Assembly: GCA_950097015.1 (NCBI GenBank)
Contig: CATNEN010000038.1
Span: forward strand, 9,610,001 to 9,674,000
Source of the DNA: Macrostomum hystrix
Lineage: Eukaryota; Animalia; Platyhelminthes
Length of the DNA stretch: 64,000 bases
Direction: 5' to 3'
In this document: piece after piece, positions 5,373 through 24,323 of the stretch
How positions within the stretch are numbered: position 1 is the first letter of the stretch
How the letters are laid out: each line of letters begins with the position of its first letter
The notes under the pieces: model-generated
Databases searched by the model: none
What the model was told of the DNA's origin: nothing
What the model saw: the letters and a program-made list of their open reading frames with translations, nothing else
Translations under genes and position numbers: made by a program

Positions 5373-7469
5373 TCAATGATTTCTATGCCCGCTGCGCCTA
5401 CGGAAGATAATCCTGTTGAAGGCGCATCGAAAGTCGGGCGAGAAGACCGTGTAGATGACGGGGTTGAGCATGCTGTTTGTGTAGCCCAACCACTGGATCA
5501 CAGCGTGGCCGGTGTCAGACAAAACGGACGCGCAGAAGCTCCTGTTGAACGGACAGAGGGACGCATGAACAAAGAACGGTAGCCAGCAGATCATGAAGCA
5601 GCCTGTCACAACAGCCAGAGTCCTTGCAGCGCGTCTCTCGCGCGCCTGTACAAGTCGATCGCGTTGGATGCAAGAGCCGCAGGTGTTTCTCGGCGAGTTG
5701 GGCGCCGGTGAAGTCTGCACCGAAGTCACAGAAGCTTCCGTAGTGTTGCTCACGTTTGATGCTTTTCCACGAGACGATTTCAGTCGAGGCATTGACCTGG
5801 CAAAATTGATACGTCGAGTAGATCTACTGGAGCTCCTCTCGTTGATGCCAGCGCCGTCGGCGACTGCGGAGCTGCCACCGGCTCCCGAAGCCAGTAAGCT
5901 GCCACCAGCTGCGGAACTCGATGCAAATCGATTGAAGCACTTCCTGCGAATCCGACGCTTAACGGCCCGGTAAATGGCCAGGTAGATAACAAGCATGAAC
6001 AGCATTGGTAGGTAGAAAGCGCCGATTGTTGAAAACACCGTGTAGCCGGGCTCGTCGTTGATCTGGCAGTGCTCGAAACCATTCGCTTGGCCTTTCTTAC
6101 TGGGATAAAACCTCGCAGGTACGCTTATGGCGACGCTGATAAGCCAGGTGAGGCCGATCACGAAGCCAATTCGACTGGCAGACTGGGAGCGGACATACTT
6201 TACATTGGTGACAGCCCAATAACGGTCGAGAGCTATACCCACGAGGTGCAGAATAGACGCTGTGCAGCACAGAACATCCAGACAGACCCACAGATCACAC
6301 ATATGACTCCCTGTAGCAATGTGAATCGGGAGAAAAAATTTTCTGAAAGCAACTGTCGTCAAGTTGAGGCGGAGCTTCTAATCAACCAACCATTCTCAAC
6401 CATTCTCAAGCTTCAGCCTTATTGTTCCAATATTCATCAATATAATTTTAAAGTCCTATGTACATTAAGTTCAGGTGCTAAATCGATGGTTTTTTAAGAA
6501 GTCCTTTGTACGGACTCATTTTTATTCGCGCCTTTGAGCTCTTTCGCTTTGATTTCAGATATTTTGATTGATTCCGGCAGGAATCGCTCCTTATCACGCG
6601 TCCTTGAGAATTCTTCTCTCCAGCTGCTCAGAAATTCTCTTTCCTTGCCTTACTCAATGCAAGGTTGCTTGCTTGCTTGCTTGCTTGCTTGGTGAGGTAG
6701 ACTTCTCCAGACTAATAATCTCACCTTTTGAAGGGAAAGCAAGGGCGCTCCCGATTCTTCCGGTTGGAGGAAGGCGGCCTCAAGCCACCTGCGGAGCTCA
6801 GTAAAATACTAATTTTCCCCCAGGCACATCAAATTTTAACTTATGGCGATGAACTTTCAAGTGATGAGTACTTGGCTCAGCTGGCCTCAAGGTCATCCTG
6901 CTCTGCATGCTCCTCGTGTCTCTTCCTCTCGGGCTGCGTGCAGGTGCCGATAGGCGCGGCTGCAATTACTCACCATTTTTTGCCTTGAAAGCTAATTTAT
7001 TTTCTTGCACTTTTTGCTCCTTGGTGCGATCAACAGTCTCTCTGTAAAGTGCTTCGTCGTTTAGTTTTTTCCATTTTTTTATTAGTGGTCAAACACTTAC
7101 CCAGCCACCAGACTTTAGAAATTTGATTCAATGCGCTGACAGGCATAACCAAGGTGGCAACCATTAGATCCGCAATGGCTAGACTAATTAGCAGGTAGTT
7201 TGAAACACTCTAAAATTAAATTTGGCGAAAACATTTCATTAATAATAATACACATACGAGTACAAATTCTCAATATTCTGAAGCTCTTGACAATACGAAA
7301 TTGCATTTTGTACCTGCAGATTTCGTTCAATAACAATAGCAGCGATCACAAAGATATTTCCTAAGACAGTTGCCAGTATGATGACGCTCAGAGCTGTGCC
7401 GATTGCGACCGCCTCCCAGAGCTTATAGCGAAGAGCGAAGCCAGAGCTGCTGTTAGCTGGGCCCTCCAT
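5373..7469 (-). CDS. Serotonin 5-HT1-like GPCR (about 400 aa); exons 7469-7314, 7209-7101, 6310-5373
   Basis: TM1 GNIFVIAAI; exon 2 (not in the ORF track) SVSNYLLISLAIADLMVATLVMP; amine-binding Asp in DVLCCTASILHL; ALDRYWAV; TM5 YTVFSTIGAFYLP; CWLPFF; NSMLNPVIY. GT-AG introns in phases 0 and 1; total 1203 nt. Confidence 0.92.
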
Positions 7470-7974
7470 GACTTGGCGAATAAGACAGTTTTGCGAGTGC
7501 CCCGTCCTCCAGGAACTTTACTGTCTGACTCTGAAGGACATTGGACACTCCCATTTATATTTATTCAGTCTCTAGTAGGCGCAAATCAATGCCGACAGTC
7601 TCTGATTGGCTCACATGAAACTCGGTGCCTGGATGCTGTGACTGGACTTGCAGATGCTACGATAGCGAGATTGTGGACTTTAGCAAGCTAGAACATGATC
7701 AGTATAATTCCACACCAGAGCGGTCCGAAATGAGGCTGATTGCCCGCGGCCGATGTCTATGGCCTAAACGATTGCTGCATAGCGTAACATAGCTTGTACA
7801 ATTTAAAAGCAAGAAAGCGGAAGTAAAGAAGAAATATAGGCACCCAAACTTATACTCGTATATTAAAAATAAGATTCTCTCTTCTTTTACCCGAGAAATT
7901 TCTTAATAAAAATTTGTCTATGATTAAAATGTGGGGGTTTAATATAGAAAACAAAAACTCTTGAAACTCTAATA

Positions 7975-9451
7975 TACCTTTTCAAGCTCGACTTTGGCAA
8001 AAGTGACTTCAATTTTGGCAGCACATAGAAAAAGCATGCCTGCCGGCAACATGTCTATGGTCAACTGTGGTAGAATCGGTTAAAGCGTGCATTCAACTTT
8101 GGCAAAAGTGAGCGAATTTCGGCAACACAATAAACTGAACGGAAAACGGTAACAAACGGACTAGGAAACAAGATTTAAACACAAAGCACGATACTGTCGT
8201 TGTTACTTTTGAAGTCATTGAATACCATCAGTGATCAATGTCATTGTAGGTGAGGCAGCGGGGTCCGTAGCTCAGCACGTGTTCGTGCCACTGCCGACAT
8301 TTTTCGGCGGTGATGGAACTGGACGCTGCCTCAACTTGAGCCGTCAGAATGCGCAGTCGACGATGCTGCAGCGTCTCACCAGCCTGCGCTGCAGCATGCC
8401 TGTCGTGAAGCCCCTGCACGATGCGGGGTTCAGTCAGGCGCCTCTTGAGATCTGCCTTCAAACAGGAGATCGCCATCTCCGCAGCGTTCAGAAAAGGCGA
8501 ATACGGCGGCATATAGTGAATGGACTGATCTTGTCGGCCAAGGTTGAGTTGGTTACCGTGCGGCCTAGCATTGTCTGCCAGTACAACAAATGAGTCGTCC
8601 ACTAATGCACTAACCTCACTCATGAACTCATGGAACTTGACTTCGGTAAAGCCTCCAGTATGGTGTCGAAGGTGTACCAATCCAAGCTGCGGACTGATTG
8701 CCAGGACGACAGTCAGATTCTGTCCGCGCTGGCTGTCGGACATCATGACGGCACGTTCACCGGCACCTGCCCATCCCTTTGTCCTTGCCGTCCACAAATT
8801 ACAGCCAAACTCGTCCACGTAGATGAGATTGTGTGCGAAGATGCCGGCTTCCATAAACCACTGCATGTGGTCGAAGCGCGCCGCCTTCGTGATATCCGAA
8901 TTCCAGTGCTCATGCACTCGCCGAACGTCCTTCAGCGTGATGTACAGAGTACAGTCCAGGCGACGGCTGATTGCCTGCACCGACACGCCTGGTGCGCTTG
9001 GAAGTTCGGCTTCCATCTTCTCCTTCATCTCCCTCAACGTTATGGTGGGCTTTTCTTCAACAAACCGAGTCACAGCATTTAACATTGGTGGTGTAAATTT
9101 TGGCCTCACGGCTCCTCCTCGTTGCTTCAGCGCAACGCGATCTTCAGCGACAAACCTGTGGATAATTGTGTCGGCAGTGGTTCTCTTTATGTCGAGGTCC
9201 TTCGCCAGTCGTCTCCAGTCTCTTCCTTCTTGGTAGCTGCGCACTAGCCGTTCTCGATCCTGCAGCGATATACGCGCGTTCGGCATGTTGTTCGGTTGAG
9301 TTGTCAAAATTCGCTCACTTTTGCCAAAGTTGAATGCACGCTTTAACCGATTCTACCACAGTTGACCATAGACATGTTGCCGGCAGGCATGCTTTTTCTA
9401 TGTGCTGCCAAAATTGAAGTCACTTTTGCCAAAGTCGAGCTTGAAAAGGTA
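7975..9451 (-). mobile_element. Intact IS630/Tc1/mariner-superfamily DNA transposon, 145-bp TIRs, TA TSD
   Basis: 7975-8119 is the reverse complement of 9307-9451; TA at 7973-74 and 9452-53; single uninterrupted transposase ORF inside. Confidence 0.95.
8228..9286 (-). CDS. DDE transposase (352 aa from ATG 9286) with N-terminal helix-turn-helix region
   Basis: HTH-like RLAKDLDIKRTTADTII, RGG linker, catalytic IYVDE, LADNARPH and PPYSPFLNAAE motifs. Confidence 0.93.
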   Translation of the reverse strand: MPNARISLQDRERLVRSYQEGRDWRRLAKDLDIKRTTADTIIHRFVAEDRVALKQRGGAVRPKFTPPMLNAVTRFVEEKPTITLREMKEKMEAELPSAPGVSVQAISRRLDCTLYITLKDVRRVHEHWNSDITKAARFDHMQWFMEAGIFAHNLIYVDEFGCNLWTARTKGWAGAGERAVMMSDSQRGQNLTVVLAISPQLGLVHLRHHTGGFTEVKFHEFMSEVSALVDDSFVVLADNARPHGNQLNLGRQDQSIHYMPPYSPFLNAAEMAISCLKADLKRRLTEPRIVQGLHDRHAAAQAGETLQHRRLRILTAQVEAASSSITAEKCRQWHEHVLSYGPRCLTYNDIDH

Positions 9452-9921
9452 TAGTTAGATATCTTCGATTAATTTTTGCCATAGACATTGACAACGGGCG
9501 CAAAATGAAGTCATGTGTAAAAAAATGAGGCAATTTAGCCATAGACGGGTGCACAATTTCATTTCGTGCCCGCTGCTTGGGCTGGCTCCTAAGATTATAT
9601 ATTCCTTGATTCAGCTTGATTCCAAGGGATAGAATCTTTGGGCTGGCTTGGCTCTGGTGTGGCCTGAAAGCAATTGTATTGACTGTGGTCGGTTTGGGAT
9701 CCCCGGCCTACAGTATGAGTATTATTAATTATAATACGAAATATCACTGAACCAGGTGTAAGGACGCTCTGCTTCAGCCTGGCATTGGTGGCGTTAAGAC
9801 GCTTACACAGCACTTCACAGTACTCCGTACAGGCCTGGCACTCCGAAAGGAAAGACACGAATGCAGCGCTTACCGGTCGGAACGCAGGATGACAGGATGA
9901 CACAGTTTCTATGTATTTTTT

Positions 9922-9967
9922 TGCAATAACTTGAGACTTGAGACGCAGTAAAAGACCGTCTTTACAG
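9922..9967 (-). other. Spliced-leader (SL) exon-like sequence
   Basis: Minus strand reads CTGTAAAGACGGTCTTTTACTGCGTCTCAAGTCTCAAGTTATTGCA. It resembles flatworm SL exons (5' CCGT..ACGG hairpin, 3' TTGCATG) and the Macrostomum SL as I recall it, but lacks the terminal TG and the adjacent GT donor. Confidence 0.65.
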
Positions 9968-10800
9968 ATCGAACCTTAAAGTTCGCCAGTTGCCCCGGCA
10001 CGGGCAGATAATGACAAACCAATAGGGTAGCAGGCGGGGGCAGACAGGGGAGGCGGTGCACAAACAAAGTCAAGCCACCAGCGCGCAGGGAGTGATAGGG
10101 TTGTACGCGCTGGCCGGGTGGACGGGCAAAGCTACACAGAGCTGATTGGCTGGAGGTCAAAGCCACGCAGGGCTGGGGTAAGGGTTGACAGACAATCCCC
10201 GCGCCCAGCCAATCAGATGGCGGCACCGCGCCAAACAAACCCGCTTCAAACACAATGGCCTTGGCGAGCACTCGACCTGAGAAACACAGACACTCAATAT
10301 ACTCAATATAATAACTATAATATGCAAAATATACTCGTAACGTATCTGATTGAGTTCAATTATTTGCATCGGATCATAAAGGATTTCATCTTCGTGCATC
10401 ACTCCATTCGTGAAAACACTCAGCACGTCCACTCGTAGCCATTTACTGGTCAAGGCCAACGTCATTAAAAATACTATACTACTGTAGATTGTTTTTATTC
10501 TATAGACAATGCCTTCGTGGTCAGAGAGGTTAGAATGGTAAGAGAAAGAAGGGCCAGAATTGTTAAAAATAGTGTCGAGACAAAAACATTGCTGACTGGG
10601 TGAGCGTTCGTGCCTCTATAGCCGCCCTGTTTACGCTCTGTGCGGCTTCACCGCTGAGCCGGTGGCACTGTGCTCACGGGCTCGGAGTCCTGTCTTTCCA
10701 TTGCGCATTGCGCCCTGTCTCAAGTCACCCGGTCTCCCTACTCGGCAGGCTTATAAAATGAGACGCGGAGACTCAGTTGTGCATCTCCATGTTTTGAGAA
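9968..10800. promoter_or_regulatory. Putative divergent promoter region
   Basis: GC-rich; CCAAT motifs at about 10019, 10144 (reverse) and 10209; GC-box-like ggcggggg at about 10032; TATAAAA at about 10752, roughly 110 nt before the iGluR-like ATG. Confidence 0.4.
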
Positions 10801-10861
10801 GATTTGCAGAATTAAGTTGAAAAGAAGCAGGGCTTCTCTAGTTACTGTCTTTGCCAGCATC

Positions 10862-13800
10862 ATGAACGCCAGGTCGCATCGCTGTCTAGCCGCTCTACTT
10901 CTTTTGCTTTCAGTGCCAGCTGCTCTGGCAGCCAACGCAACGACTTCGAATGTCACTACCATCAGCCTTGGTAAGTCAGATGATTCTATTGGCAACTGAG
11001 AACATACACACTTTGCCGTGGCGGGGGCTAGCCCTCGCAGGCGACATTGTACCCAAAGCTCCCAAACGATTGCTCCTCAAATGAATGAGGAAAAATGATC
11101 TCGCCGCGGATTAGAGCTCAGGGACATTTGGTGCTAGAGTCAGACGCCCCATGGCCCGGTGACAAAGTCGAGGCGGATTTACAAGGTAATTACTCTGTAG
11201 TAATTAACCTCTTCGAGGGCAGCTAGTCGATGTTGGCTGTCAAATCAGATCGGTCGAGTAGGAGATTAAACTAAATCAAAAGCTGTGTTTTACCGACAGG
11301 TCTCATCTGGGACTCGTCAGACGCGGTGGCAGAGTTTGTCGAGCGGGCTGGCCAGCTAATGCCAGACATCAGCAGCTACTGTCCGCTGGCTCCCAGGCTT
11401 AACGAGACAGTGTTGGACTTCTCCGGTGCATTCAAAATCGACACGCTGCCAACAACCAGCGAGCTGAAGTCAGGTGAGTCACGTGGGTTGAGCACACTTG
11501 TACTAGGCACTCATTCCTTTTGACGTCATTTTGTTAAACTCGTGTATCACGTGAATGCTTCGCCTGAACAGGTGCTTTCTCTGGATTCAATCTGAGCAAA
11601 CAATCCAAATCTTCTGCTGCAGGATCTGTGGCAATCCACCTATTTCAGCTCTCTGTCTCATTCTCAAGTTTCAAAGCATTGCCTGATGCCTGGAAACTAA
11701 GAAGGACATATTAGAAAACGAATGCCGCTCATTTACTTTGATGCCTTTCTGATGACGAACATGTCGGCTTCAATTCTTATTTTAGAGTTTGCGATTAGCC
11801 AACAAGGACCCTTCAAAAGGAGATTAGTTCTTTAAATAGCACACTAGCCTCCAGATGACACCAAACGAACCCTCGTCAAGACAAATAATATGAATAAAAA
11901 TAATAATTGCAGGAGGGCTGCTGGAAACGGCACATCATTCGGTGACACTAGACACGCAGCCAGCGAGGAAGCAATTCTGCCCATTTCGCTGACTCCTGAG
12001 CACACACGCACACAGATACCCAACGCAGGCACACACTCACTTAAGTGTGTACATCTGCACTGACATTCTCATCGTCAGGCAGTGTACACTCTCACTGTGC
12101 CTTTGGGGTTGGCCCTCAAGGGCGTAAATTGCACGACAAGCTCCCAACCCTTCTCTCCAAGGCTGCGCCCCAAATAAATGTGGCCTCGCCGTGGAATCGA
12201 ACTTAAGGACCGTGGAGCGAGAGGCAAACGCGTTAACCGTTCTGCCACTCACCCCTTCATCGAGCAAAAACTCGGTTTCCTACTCTGTTTCCAAAATTCG
12301 CAGCCTCTCGTTCCTCGCTACTATAAGTAGTAAGCTTGACAGTAAAGAGATCACGGAGGTATTTCAAATATCCAAATTTTTCTTTCCCCCCAAAATATTC
12401 GCCATAAAAAAGAAAACGGAATGTTTTGATCTTTATCGTGAGTTTCACGAAAATCGGTGAATCGGTTTGGGAGCTATCGTGAAGTATTTGAAATACTTCA
12501 GTGGGTATTTGAAATACCCCTTGGTCTTTCCCATTTATTAAAATAGCGCGTTCTTTCTACCGCTAATAAAATACTCAAATTCCCTCCTAACTCTCAAAAT
12601 TTGTGCAGTGGTGTCAACGCTGAGCGAAATGAACTTTCTATTCTTCGGCGTGAAGCGGAACTCTATCACCCAGGTGCTCGAATCGCTAGCTGTGCCCACC
12701 AGCTTGGCTGAGTATCCATGGATGCAGAGACACTTTGTGGCGCCGCTTCCGCAGCAGCTCTTATTGGAGGCGCTGCTTAAAGTGATTGCTCAACGAATAA
12801 CCGAGAGCCAGCTGCCTGATGACCCATCGAACTTCAAGGCGGCGCTGTTTCTGGACGGCAGTGTCAACACCGCGGAAATGTACCCGCTATTCACCTTCTT
12901 CTCAGAGGGCGTCTCATACTACTCACTGTGCAACACTTGCAAGCGAGACAACGCGACACTAGAAAGATATCTGCTGTCTGTGCGGGATGCTCAGATCACC
13001 AACATCGTTGTCATTGTACTGGATCCTGACCTAGGCCGACACCTGCGCGATAGAGCTCTCTCCATGGGCATGTTCGCATCCAGGTACCGCTGGTTTGTGC
13101 ACGGGCCGGTGAGTAGCCACACTCGATTATGTATTCAGGAACACCTGGGCTTGTGGACTGTGAGGACGCCGCACCCGCCCTCAATTACCCCAGCTAATGC
13201 TGGCACCCATTAAACAGCTGGTTAAACTGAATCAGATAATTAGTGTTTTGCTAAAGGACACAAATGGTGTTCCAGTGGAGTTAGGAATCGAACCCCCGAC
13301 CTTCAAGACGTGAGTCAGACGTTCTAACCACAAGGAAATTGGTCCTACCCCTACTTGTCAGGGGGGTCGGTGGCAGAGAGGTTTATGTGTTTGCCTCTCG
13401 CACCACGGTCCCTAAGTTCGATTCCTCGGCGAGGCCACATTCATTTGGGACACAGCCGCGGAGAGAAGGCTTGCGAGCTTGGCGTGCAATTTACGCCCTT
13501 GAGGGACAACCTCCACGGCAAAGTGAAAGTGCACACTGCCTGACGATGAGAAAGTCAGGGCAGATATACACAACCTGTGTGAGTGTGTGCCTGCGTACGG
13601 TATCTGTGTGAGTGAGTGCTCAGGAGTCAGCAAAATGGGCAGAATTGCCTCCTCGCTGGCTGCGGGTCTAGTGTCACTAAATGATGTGTCATTGCACGCA
13701 GCCTCCTGCAATTATTATATTATATTATTACACTCCTACTTGTCAAATTAAAACTGTAGAAAAAGTAGTTCAAGTTGCTATGCAAACCGAATAACCAAAG

Positions 13801-20912: not shown

Positions 20913-23585
20913 TTTATACGTAACATATGCCGCTTAGTTAGCAGAAGTTTACACTTGGGTTGCACAGCAAATTAAAAAGGCGCCCTTTAGGTATATTTGA
21001 TACTAAGGACTAAGGTCTCAGTGATTGAAACAATGAGCCCAAGAGGTAAACTTACACTTTTGTTAGTTTGTAAGGTAGTTTCTAAGACAGGCGTGAATTT
21101 AAGAAAGCATCATATTTATTTTTCAGTATACTGACAGCAGATGCATGCCGCTGCCGCCGCGTAACTCTTTGTACTTGTTAGTGCCTCGTGGTGGATTTCA
21201 GCGTTAGAAAAATATGAACAGTGTCCCCCCAGCAGCAGCTATTTAATCACAACCCTTTAGCAGCTTGCCCGAAAGAGCTTGATTCGAAATCAACTTCAAA
21301 GTCTGGATCTGGATCAGCACATGCGGCAGCGGATCTGACAATAATAGTTCTTTAGGCCTACTTTTACTTTACTTACCTTCAGTAAGGATGGTGTTCACTT
21401 AGAGGATGAAAATCACGTTTTGCATACAGGACACTGCTGCATGGTCGTAAAAATTGCAACACTCTCGACAGCCCAGTTAAACATTAATCATGTTAAAATA
21501 GAGCCTAGACCCTAGATAAACAGTTTTTGCTCGGTTTAGAAGCTTTACGAGTAATATACTTTGGTAAATTAATATATTAAAAACATTAGATAGGGGCTAA
21601 TGAAACACACAGTGCAAGCCAACTGTATGTGTTGCTCATATGTTGCATTGACCAACCAAAAATAGGCCTAGCATGAACAAAAAGTAATTATTTTACACTA
21701 GGCCTACTTACAGCTGTTATTTGGCTAGGCATAGGGCCTAATTTATAGGCCTATATATTTTGCTATCTAAAACATACACCTATCTAGAGTCTAAAATATT
21801 GTGTAAGACCTGATCCTAACTACATCCTTAGTAGGCCTAATTTTAAGCCTAAACTAGACATCATGAACAATAATCTATAATAGCAACAGGAATGCAAAGT
21901 ATTGAATTGGGCATGAATAATGGGCTTAGGCCTTTAAGGCTTATTGTCTTCTAAAAAGTTTTAGGAGTAATTTCTCCCTTAATAGCAAATCTAGCAAGAG
22001 GCCTATTATTAGGCCCCCCTATAGGGTATAGGGCCTAGGTCTTTATAGTGACTAGTCTTTTTGTCAACTGGCTTTTTATCAACTACCTTTTCATTTTAAT
22101 TGGGTTGATTGTACTCAGCTAGAGTTTCCTTTCAGATGACTTCATGGCACAATGTAGTTTGCAATTGTTTAGAGTGTTGTAAAAGGCATAGTATGTTATA
22201 TAACAAGGCCTTAGTGGCACCCACCCGGCCACCCCAAGGGCTAGTAGGCCAATTCTGCAACACTACACACTAACTTGTACATGTGTACACTGCATACAGC
22301 TATCTCATTATTATCTACAGTTAGGCCCTATTCATGATAATTTTCGTGTTTTTAATAATTTTCTTATTTATATGATGAACATGTGATGAAGATTATGAGC
22401 ATGGGACAGACATGCACAGACAAGATATAAGAGCAGCTTAAGTTTTAACATAAGTTTTACTTCCAAGCTATTTTTCATCTTAACAAGTTTTACCTTGGTG
22501 CTATTTTTAGGGATAAGGTAGAAATTTTCCCACTTTTAGGGAGAGACGTGTTTTATTCCTCATTATTTTGTATTTTTTTTCTTTGTAATTTTTAGCCACT
22601 AATTTGGCATTAACTTATTGATTATGCAGCTCACTCAAAACCCCCCATCACTGGCAAAATACTGAATAATGCCCCCCTCAAAAGTTTACTAATTCCCCCA
22701 AAATTAATTAACCATTCTTTAGATAGAAATTAGAGCAATGCTTTTCAGTAGGCTTCAACTAAAGCTCATGATTTATCTAAAGGCAAAGGAAATTTTCAAA
22801 TACGTATAATTCTATAATTACATAATCCCATAGGAACTATCAGATTCCATAGGTGCTACTTTAATGTCATTGTATTATAATATTCTTGCAGTTTTCTTCA
22901 GTTGCATATCAGCTCTATAATAATCTCATATTTGATTGCCAATATTAGTTTTACAGATTTATTGTAAACAGTTTCAAATTTTCTATTATTTCATAAAGCT
23001 GCTTTGCAAAAATGCTATTATGTGTAATACTCCTAAACAGTTTCTGGAGTAGGTAAAAACCTTAAGCCTGTTTAAATATGATCATGTTGCTGTTGGGTGC
23101 ACGATAATCTAATTGCATTTTATGCATGCAAAAGTCGCATACCATAGGAAACCCTATTAGAAAAAATGTTCTAATGATCCAATTTAAATCAGAATGATTT
23201 GCAAAAAAGTTTTTTATGTTTCATTCCTTTAGCATTAAACAGTTATCTATATTTAGTTCTATAGATAAAAGCTAGTCGTATTTGAAAAGGTAGTATGTGA
23301 TACGTAGCTAGATTGCTTCACAATCTCCTTTTCACAACTACTTTAAGTACTTTTGTGTTAGATATGATTTGACCGACTAAAATAGTCCAGCTAGCAGATG
23401 CATTATGTAGCTTTTCATTTATAAAGGTCCCATTATTCTTAAGTTGGAAAACTTCAGATTCAGCATTGTTACTGTCAGTTACAGTTAGCCTGTCAATAAT
23501 GCAGGAAGGGGACGGGTTGAGAGGCAGGAGGAGGCCATAGTGAGAGGCAGGAAGATGAATCTAAAATCGCCTTTCTCCTTCAGCA

Positions 23586-24323
23586 ATGGGATTTCGAGGT
23601 GGAGGTGGTGGCCGTGGCGGCGGTGGCGGCTTTCGCGGCGGTCGAGGAGGCGGTGGCGGCTTTCGCGGCGGTGGTCGAGGCGGCTTCCGTGGCGGCCGAG
23701 GTGGAGGCGGCGGCGGCGGCGGTCGCTACGAGGACCAGGGCCCACCGGAGAGTGTCGATGAAGTTGGCGTCTACATGCAGCCGTGCGTGGAAGACATGGT
23801 CTGCAAGCTGACACACGAGAAGATTCCCTACTTCAATGCGCCCATCTTTCTAGAGAATAAGGAGCAGATTGGCAAAGTGGACGAGATCTTCGGCCCCATC
23901 AAGGACGCGTACTTCTCTGTGAAAATGGCACCCGGCGTCAAGTGCCAGTCTCTAGCTAAGGACACCAAAGTGTTTATTGATTCGATGAAGCTGCTACCAT
24001 TGTCCAGGTTCCTGCCGCAGCCGCGCGGCGCCCCCAGAGGCGGTCGCGGTGGACGTGGCGGCGGCGACAGAGGCCGCGGTGGAGGCTTCGATCGCGGTCG
24101 AGGCCGCGGAGGCTTTGATCGTGGCCGCGGCGGCCGGGGCGGCTTTGACCGCGGCGGACGCGGCGGTGGCGGCTTCGATCGCGGACGCGGCGGCCGGGGC
24201 GGCTTTGACCGTGGCGGACGCGGCGGTGGTGGCTTCGATCGCGGACGTGGCGGCCGCGGCGGCGGCTTTAGTGACCGTCGGCACAGCGAGGGCCCGCAGG
24301 CGAAACGGCCTAAGTTCGAATGA
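23586..24323 (+). CDS. GAR1: H/ACA ribonucleoprotein complex subunit 1 (GAR1), 245 aa, intronless CDS
   Basis: RGG-rich N- and C-termini flank the conserved core [27 protein letters not shown]...[10 protein letters not shown]. Confidence 0.97.

What the first reader, a model, noticed from the sequence alone, without database searches (positions are those of the whole stretch)
9874..9967. Genome-encoded spliced-leader-like sequence apparently used as a cis first exon
Seen: the minus strand reads CTGTAAAGACGGTCTTTTACTGCG-TCTCAAG-TCTCAAG-TTATTGCA (9967-9922), then A7, then about 40 nt and a strong donor CCG|GTAAGC (9874/9873). Directly upstream is a GC/CCAAT-rich promoter-like block shared back-to-back with iGluR-like 1. 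Knowledge: flatworm SL exons begin with a CCGT..ACGG hairpin and end in ATG followed by GT. From memory (unverified), the Macrostomum SL is close to CCGTAAAGACGGTCTCTTACTGCGAAGACTCAATTTATTGCATG. The hairpin here is retained through a U-G pair, but the terminal ATG, the adjacent donor and an obvious Sm site are lost, so this is not a canonical SL RNA gene. Inference: a captured SL (retro-copy of a trans-spliced mRNA or an SL gene relic) may serve as a hard-wired 5' leader, cis-spliced across the transposon to the 5-HT1-like receptor 2.4 kb downstream. The mRNA would then mimic trans-spliced transcripts.
Basis: partly seen in the sequence, partly recalled or inferred. Interest (0 to 1): 0.8.

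Follow-up and report, generated by a model that had tools for sequence, protein, structure and literature searches.

The report
Flatworm repeat carrying spliced-leader relic
A decayed copy of the flatworm spliced-leader sequence sits inside a roughly 550-base repeat with several diverged relatives, so it was likely picked up once by a mobile element and spread with it, while the neighbouring serotonin-receptor-like gene likely starts from its own local leader instead.

Summary
The match is real. Minus strand 9967-9922 matches 38 of 42 bases, plus a 4-base insertion, of the leader exon of two canonical macrostomid SL RNA genes found here (score 54; 60 shuffles reach at most 30). The terminal ATG, adjacent donor, Sm site and fold are lost, so it is not an SL RNA gene. 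It lies inside a repeat of about 550 bp (about 9745-10295): 15 of 20 contigs of a same-species spliced run fall on it, as diverged variants. One variant also carries the leader relic, so the capture predates this insertion. A short promoter motif and intron-start letters shared with SL genes suggest capture from the SL RNA gene or RNA, not from a trans-spliced mRNA. The GC/CCAAT block belongs to the repeat; the iGluR gene has its own TATA. Receptor contigs run colinear from 7745 through the best acceptor (7531), so a hard-wired first exon is unsupported, though a minor isoform is not excluded. SL relics in repeats are known in flatworms. The scan had no look-alike of this element; it noted an SL-headed LINE in another genome. 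Element class unresolved.

The parts
9745..10295 (-). Dispersed non-coding repeat of about 550 bp (ends approximate; strand by the leader and donor)
   Evidence: 15 of 20 contigs of run X5 laid on 6200-11480 fall in bins 9740-10447; 7 of 7 contigs at 10136 differ from the window; loose ends with different flanks at 10290 and 10294; matches reach 9742 on the left
9922..9967 (-). Decayed SL exon (positions +2 to +43), with a 4-nt insertion at 9943-9940 that makes the 7-nt tandem duplication
   Evidence: 38 of 42 identical to the L001/L002 exon; score 54 against a shuffle maximum of 30 in 60
9909..9921 (-). A-rich replacement of the terminal TG and donor, then a likely remnant of the SL intron start
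   Evidence: Window 6 of 13, sibling contig 8 of 13 (8 of 9 over 9917-9909) identical to L001 in register (from differences)
9978..9990 (-). Short upstream motif shared with SL gene promoters (GCGAWCT core at -18; -25 in L001, -20 in L002)
   Evidence: 12 of 13 with L001; 2 of 3000 random 35-mers score as well; three-way test 13 of 1000 and 2 of 1000; against L002 alone 387 of 3000
9868..9874 (-). Splice-donor-like site CCG|GTAAGC (9874/9873)
   Evidence: Sequence; the sibling contig that carries the relic stops at about 9872 (my reading of from_end values); a second sibling (depth 38.8) reads through it
9969..10295 (-). GC/CCAAT-rich upstream block, part of the repeat, predicted promoter
   Evidence: 60% GC over 9969-10280, CCAAT at 10019, 10145, 10209; hit by up to 7 diverged contigs
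9740..9744 (.). Candidate 5-bp target-site duplication, left copy (AATAT)
   Evidence: One of many 4-7 bp pairs in AT-rich flanks, but the one nearest the ends seen in contigs
10296..10300 (.). Candidate 5-bp target-site duplication, right copy
   Evidence: a longer loose flank repeat is reached by 57 of 2000 shuffles
7973..9453 (-). Tc1/IS630-like DNA transposon between the repeat and the receptor
   Evidence: 158-nt terminal inverted repeats, 98%; open frame 8228-9352 with DDE_3, E 3e-16
7314..7745 (-). Receptor first exon with colinear 5' leader (ATG 7469; candidate acceptor 7531)
   Evidence: Contigs 7745-7518 and 7546-7314, 0 differences, overlapping by 29 nt
5373..7209 (-). Receptor exons 2 and 3 (7209-7100; 6309-5373), 5-HT-receptor-like GPCR
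   Evidence: Spliced contig; 7tm_1 E 2e-45; best hit M. lignano 61%, named hits are 5-HT receptors
10752..10969 (+). iGluR-like gene: TATA box at 10752 and first exon seen from 10798
   Evidence: Lig_chan domains in a later exon of the same contig

Best explanation
The sequence is a decayed spliced-leader exon lying inside a dispersed repeat of about 550 bp, likely a non-autonomous mobile element or terminal repeat that captured a piece of the SL RNA gene (or of the SL RNA itself) once and then spread it, and this copy is likely a passive insertion that does not supply the receptor's main first exon. Shown: the SL homology, the loss of SL-gene features, the diverged family members, the relic in a second member, and a receptor leader colinear to 7745. 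Inferred: mobility and element class; that the upstream block is a promoter starting near 9968; that the captured piece ran from the -20 motif through the exon into the first ten or so intron bases, with the ATG-donor junction overwritten by A-rich letters before the two members diverged. Without an adjacent donor or Sm site it would not be trans-spliced or trimethyl-capped by the snRNP route. At most it would be an ordinary capped 5' leader that could splice from the donor at 9874.
For: SL match 38 of 42, score 54 against a maximum of 30 in 60 shuffles. No ATG, donor or Sm site; fold z 0.64 and -0.72 against -3.57 and -4.00 for the true genes; a model of the two genes lists 15 matches to E 5, none at this locus. 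15 of 20 contigs of X5 fall on the element, at most 2 of them 99% alike or better, while host exons show 0 differences, so these are paralogs and not alleles. A sibling contig (depth 11.2, about 9872-9988) has the relic without the 4-nt and 7-nt duplications. Of its 7 listed substitutions 3 move toward the SL gene, 3 away and 1 is neutral, which is independent decay from one ancestor. Gene-level origin: upstream motif (2 of 3000; three-way 13 of 1000) and intron-start letters in the sibling (8 of 9, P 0.0002; 8 of 13, P 0.009). Receptor contigs are colinear 7745-7314. SL pieces tied to mobile elements are common in flatworms (597 of 1,179 candidate loci, PMC12582326 section 6).
Against: No genome is held, so copy number, termini and flanks of siblings are seen only through one run's contigs. 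The inferred ends are not TG..CA and show no inverted repeat, and the 5-bp duplication lies in AT-rich flanks with many chance pairs. The motif and intron-start tests are post hoc: the window alone gives 6 of 13 (P 0.11), the next 18 positions 3 of 18, the motif offsets differ (-18, -25, -20), and window against L002 alone is not significant (387 of 3000). The sibling's letters come from a difference table that omits contig ends and hides 10 rows. Two siblings skip or replace the middle (joints 9901-10036 and 9816-10096, content not known), so it is open whether the relic is ancestral to the whole family.
Confidence: 0.55

Rival explanations
1. Same repeat, but the leader came from trans-splicing: an element transcript received the SL, was reverse transcribed, and the SL was fixed next to the element's own promoter, as proposed for parasitic flatworms.
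For: This is the published reading of 597 SL-bearing loci near LTR and LINE elements (PMC12582326 section 6) and of 6 of 32 genomic SL copies in S. mansoni (PMC5832876 passages). Homology is clear only for the exon; 330 nt upstream and 180-200 nt downstream are not similar to L001 or L002 (43, 220, 218 and 267 of 300 shuffles reach the score).
Against: Trans-splicing would keep the terminal ATG, which both members lack. It does not explain the intron-start letters in register or the -20 motif. The upstream test has no power, since L001 and L002 are not similar to each other there either (120 of 300).
Confidence: 0.2
2. The whole unit is a dispersed, decayed SL RNA gene family (pseudogenes with their promoter), not a mobile element.
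For: Promoter motif at about -20 and intron-start remnant; no clear transposon termini; SL pseudogenes with lost AUG or donor are described (PMC12582326 section 7; PMC2770079 passages).
Against: Most sibling contigs match the upstream block and the part beyond the donor, not the SL part. The 180 nt downstream is unlike the SL intron and has no Sm site. The upstream block itself is carried in contigs of a spliced run, which an snRNA promoter would not usually be.
Confidence: 0.15
3. One reading: the relic is a hard-wired first exon, transcribed from the CCAAT block and cis-spliced from 9874 across the Tc1-like element to the receptor's acceptor, so the mRNA mimics a trans-spliced one.
For: Consensus donor; the leader has no ATG; the 7531 acceptor fits the M. 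lignano trans-splice motif, and 7469 is the first ATG after it. The sibling with the relic stops within 2 nt of the donor (my reading). Solo LTRs splicing to an ancestral trans-splice acceptor are described in Echinococcus (PMC4558846 passages). SL-mimicking 5' hairpins are described in C. elegans (PMC9984361 abstract).
Against: Receptor contigs run colinear through 7531 up to 7745 with 0 differences. The window copy has private changes against its siblings (7 of 7 contigs at 10136, 3 of 3 at 10256) and has lost further SL letters, which looks like neutral decay. The hairpin is weak.
Confidence: 0.08

Closest known systems
SL-bearing loci tied to LTR and LINE elements in parasitic flatworms (PMC12582326, abstract, sections 6-7 and passages read; PMC5832876, passages)
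   Same: Genomic SL exon sequence inside or beside a repeat, without a working SL RNA gene
   Different: Those show only partial leaders and are read as retro-copied trans-spliced RNA. Here almost the whole exon lies mid-element behind a shared promoter-like block, lacks the ATG, and has hints of SL gene promoter and intron letters
Macrostomum lignano SL RNA gene (PMC8629364, parts 1-2 of 4 read) and the two canonical genes L001, L002
   Same: Leader exon 38 of 42; -20 motif; likely intron start
   Different: No ATG, adjacent donor, Sm site or fold; 4-nt insertion
ta-TRIM solo LTRs of Echinococcus (PMC4558846, section 17 and passages read)
   Same: Short dispersed flatworm repeat in transcripts, promoter-like half, donor able in principle to reach a host acceptor, 4-5 bp duplication
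   Different: ta-TRIM LTRs are about 198 bp with TG..CA ends, PBS and PPT, and no SL is reported in the parts read; here the ends are not TG..CA and no fusion is shown
Relict SLs of dinoflagellate retrogenes (PMC5585692, PMC6050394; search listing only)
   Same: Decayed SL encoded in the genome upstream of a gene
   Different: There the SL heads the retrocopied mRNA itself; here it is 2.4 kb from an intron-containing gene and inside a repeat

Membership tests
Flatworm SL RNA gene | Leader exon homologous to the genus SL | tested here: met
   38 of 42 plus a 4-nt insertion
Flatworm SL RNA gene | Exon ends in ATG followed at once by GTAAG | tested here: not met
   A-run in place of TG and donor
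Flatworm SL RNA gene | Sm-like site downstream | tested here: not met
   ATTTTTAG at +78 in both true genes, no such match in 9967-9700
Flatworm SL RNA gene | Stem-loop fold with the donor in the first stem | tested here: not met
   z 0.64 and -0.72 against -3.57 and -4.00; no match of the two-sequence model to E 5
Flatworm SL RNA gene | Leader found trans-spliced on mRNAs; trimethyl cap | not testable with these tools
   Only contigs available; no cap data
Retro-copy of a trans-spliced mRNA | SL with its ATG fused directly to the copied mRNA | tested here: not met
   ATG absent; no Pfam family for the only long frame across it; siblings differ by 1-nt indels
Retro-copy of a trans-spliced mRNA | Unrelated flank right upstream of the SL in each copy | tested here: not met
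   The sibling contig stays aligned about 20 nt upstream of the SL start, and the upstream block is shared by others
Solo LTR / TRIM | Multiple dispersed diverged copies | tested here: met
   15 of 20 contigs, 7 at one site, different flanks
Solo LTR / TRIM | TG..CA termini | tested here: not met
   Inferred ends on neither strand read TG..CA
Solo LTR / TRIM | 4-5 bp target-site duplication | tested here: inconclusive
   AATAT at both inferred ends, but many chance pairs in AT-rich flanks
Solo LTR / TRIM | Full elements with two repeats, PBS and PPT | not testable with these tools
   No genome held; no second copy in the window
TIR transposon / MITE | Terminal inverted repeats | tested here: not met
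   Only 6-7 nt AT-rich pairs outside the inferred ends
Repeat exapted as first exon of a host gene | Splice junction from the repeat to the host gene | tested here: inconclusive
   Receptor contigs are colinear to 7745; contigs cannot exclude a rare junction

The most novel reading that the evidence does not exclude
A flatworm mobile element has taken over the SL RNA gene's promoter and leader and put a new donor 48 nt further on. Each insertion then delivers a portable promoter, an SL-like capped leader and a donor that out-competes trans-splicing at host acceptors, converting trans-spliced genes, possibly this serotonin-receptor-like gene in some cells, into cis-spliced SL mimics.
Probability: 0.15. 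Interest if true: 0.75.

Novelty: new member of a known kind. Interest (0 to 1): 0.33.

Why it matters
As it stands it is a caution and a modest lead. Genomic SL look-alikes in free-living flatworms can be repeat cargo, can mislead SL-gene and trans-splice annotation, and need not belong to the nearest gene. If the family proves to carry the SL gene's promoter and to splice from its new donor, it would show a route by which trans-spliced genes return to cis-splicing while keeping an SL-like 5' end, and it would give natural alleles for testing whether the SL sequence or the trimethyl cap is what matters for translation.

Tried and rejected
No whole genome is held, so copies could not be counted. 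The run search listed 5 runs, no RNA holder on record; 4 of the 5 were laid. X1-X3 cover shared repeats but hardly the unique exons and were set aside. X5 is of unknown kind on record; I read it as RNA of the same species because it has GT..AG joints and 0 differences in exons. In X5 no joint from 9874 to the receptor is listed (6 joints shown), and no contig with the window's own letters covers 9910-9952; contigs drop rare forms, so neither blank is counted as evidence. The break between the two receptor contigs (29-nt overlap) is one short of a graph link, so I read it as a coverage dip and not a splice branch. Rfam: 2 chance-level matches in 9000-11000, none in the window at gathering score; no ribozyme match. 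No second copy in the window. The SL pattern found 1 locus in metagenomes, 1 in genomes, 0 in viral contigs. Six short motifs gave 0 hits in the 5 supplement files of the M. lignano LTR paper (line breaks or species distance may hide matches). The supplement of PMC10468722, which lists SL sequences of two more Macrostomum species, could not be read; the paper's text calls them highly conserved. Helitron, tRNA-SINE and PBS readings of the ends were considered by eye and none fit. A likeness of the sequence after the donor to ta-TRIM U5 primers was noted by eye and not tested. The bacterial promoter scan and plasmid search were uninformative. Searches found no report of an SL fragment inside a Macrostomum repeat; the library lacks most subscription papers.

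Full report
Organism and neighbours. The receptor's large exon has a 7tm_1 domain. Its best hit is a Macrostomum lignano protein at 61% identity, and the named hits are 5-HT receptors. The window is therefore likely from a macrostomid flatworm other than M. lignano. The plus-strand neighbour has ligand-gated channel domains. A Tc1/IS630-like element with 158-nt inverted repeats fills 7973-9453. No whole genome is held.

The observation. The letters at 9967-9922 and the donor at 9874/9873 are as written. A pattern scan fetched two canonical SL RNA genes, L001 and L002. Their 45-nt exons are identical, end in ATG, are followed by GTAAG, and have an ATTTTTAG site; they fold at z -3.57 and -4.00. 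By eye their last 35 nt equal the published M. lignano SL (PMC8629364, parts 1-2 of 4 read). The window matches 38 of 42 exon positions with one 4-nt insertion. The score is 54, against mean 24.0 and maximum 30 in 60 shuffled windows, and 28 for the next best real site. The homology is real.

Not an SL RNA gene. ATG, adjacent donor and Sm-like site are missing. The region folds no better than shuffles (z 0.64, -0.72), the 5' hairpin is worth -1.3 kcal/mol, and a model built from the two genes lists 15 matches to E 5 in the three sources, none at this locus.

It lies in a repeat. Run X5 has spliced contigs with 0 differences in the exons of both neighbouring genes, so I read it as RNA of the same species. 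Of 20 contigs laid on 6200-11480, five account for all depth outside 9740-10447; the other 15 fall on that stretch. At most 2 of the 15 are 99% alike or better, and 5 are under 90%. At 10136 all 7 contigs differ from the window, at 10256 all 3. Loose ends with different flanks appear at 10290 and 10294, further loose ends at 9817, 9818 and 10228, and matches reach 9742. So 9745-10295 is one member of a diverged family, and the GC/CCAAT block is part of it. A 5-bp duplication flanks these ends, but the flanks are AT-rich and give many such pairs; there are no TG..CA ends and no inverted termini. The class stays open. The iGluR contig begins at 10798, 46 nt after a TATA box at 10752, so that gene does not need the block.

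A sibling carries the relic. One contig (depth 11.2) spans about 9872-9988 by my reading of the from_end column. It lacks the 4-nt and 7-nt duplications of the window copy. Of its 7 listed substitutions, 3 move toward the SL gene, 3 away and 1 is neutral. Both copies lack the ATG and donor. The capture and the loss of the junction thus predate this insertion. Two other siblings skip or replace the middle (joints 9901-10036 and 9816-10096, content not known), so the relic may mark a subfamily.

Origin. Two hints point to the SL gene or SL RNA rather than a trans-spliced mRNA. First, just after the exon the sibling matches the SL intron start in register at 8 of 9 positions (8 of 13 counting the overwritten junction, P 0.009); the window has 6 of 9 and 6 of 13 (P 0.11), and the next 18 positions give only 3. 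Second, a GCGAWCT motif lies at -18 in the window, -25 in L001 and -20 in L002. The window-L001 match is reached by 2 of 3000 random 35-mers and the three-way match by 13 of 1000, but window against L002 alone by 387 of 3000. Both tests are post hoc, and the sibling's letters come from a table that omits contig ends and hides 10 rows. Wider flanks show no similarity, though L001 and L002 show none to each other either. I put gene- or SL-RNA-level capture at a little better than even.

The receptor. One contig runs 7546-7314, then exons 2 and 3; another runs 7745-7518; both have 0 differences. The leader is thus colinear across 7531, the only acceptor in 7800-7470 that fits the M. lignano trans-splice motif, and beyond the motifs at 7555-7610. 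This is direct evidence for a local leader of at least 276 nt. It could also be unspliced precursor, and it does not test an acceptor upstream of 7745.

Mechanism. Most likely a non-autonomous element took up a piece of the SL gene at its promoter region, by recombination with the gene or by template switching onto SL RNA during reverse transcription; the data do not separate these. The junction was overwritten, the element spread, and this copy decayed. It could still act as a weak promoter and donor, but without an Sm site it would not be expected to gain a trimethyl cap (established snRNP biology, recalled).

Known kinds. SL pieces near mobile elements made up 597 of 1,179 candidate loci in 24 parasitic flatworms (PMC12582326, section 6), and S. 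mansoni has 32 extra SL loci, 6 joined to transposons (PMC5832876, passages). Solo LTRs that splice to an ancestral trans-splice acceptor are described in Echinococcus (PMC4558846, passages and section 17), and SL-mimicking hairpins in C. elegans (PMC9984361, abstract). Seven literature searches found no report of such an element in Macrostomum. The scan's own notes had no look-alike and one SL-headed LINE in another genome (unchecked); two notes on this genome also call it a flatworm.

Verdict. Observation confirmed; interpretation partly supported. A new member of a known kind, interest 0.33. The bold reading, a portable SL-promoter, leader and donor cassette, is not excluded (about 0.15) and is testable with the assembly and raw reads.

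Noticed in passing
L002 1030-1192 and 1498-1605: A contig filed in a Flavobacteriaceae genome bin holds a U1 snRNA gene (Rfam RF00003, 151.7 bits) about 305 nt upstream of a canonical macrostomid-type SL RNA gene, with TTAGGG-like repeats near 180-250. Likely a misbinned flatworm contig, showing U1-SL gene linkage.
   Followed up: partly
L001 615-722 and L002 1498-1605: Two SL RNA genes with identical 45-nt exons, 10 nt longer at the 5' end than the published 35-nt M. lignano SL, a conserved ATTTTTAG Sm-like site and a shared GCGAWCT motif at -20 to -25; Rfam has no family for them.
   Followed up: partly
window 7973-9453: Tc1/IS630-like element with 158-nt inverted repeats (98%) and an open transposase frame; contigs of the other organism's runs match it at about 98% over 361 nt, suggesting recent activity or transfer between species.
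   Followed up: no
window 7473-7790: The colinear receptor leader holds four upstream ATGs below 7745 (7696, 7616, 7554, 7541); splicing at the 7531 acceptor would remove all of them.
   Followed up: partly
window 7710-7768 and 9473-9662: Short inverted matches on both sides of the Tc1-like element (I2 and I21) hint at an older element into which it inserted.
   Followed up: no
window 24887-63900: A long run of unrelated minisatellite arrays (periods 12-33, some over 2 kb) with strong strand skews.
   Followed up: no
window 23565-24323 +: Intronless-looking Gly/Arg-rich frame resembling GAR1 (name recalled, not tested).
   Followed up: no
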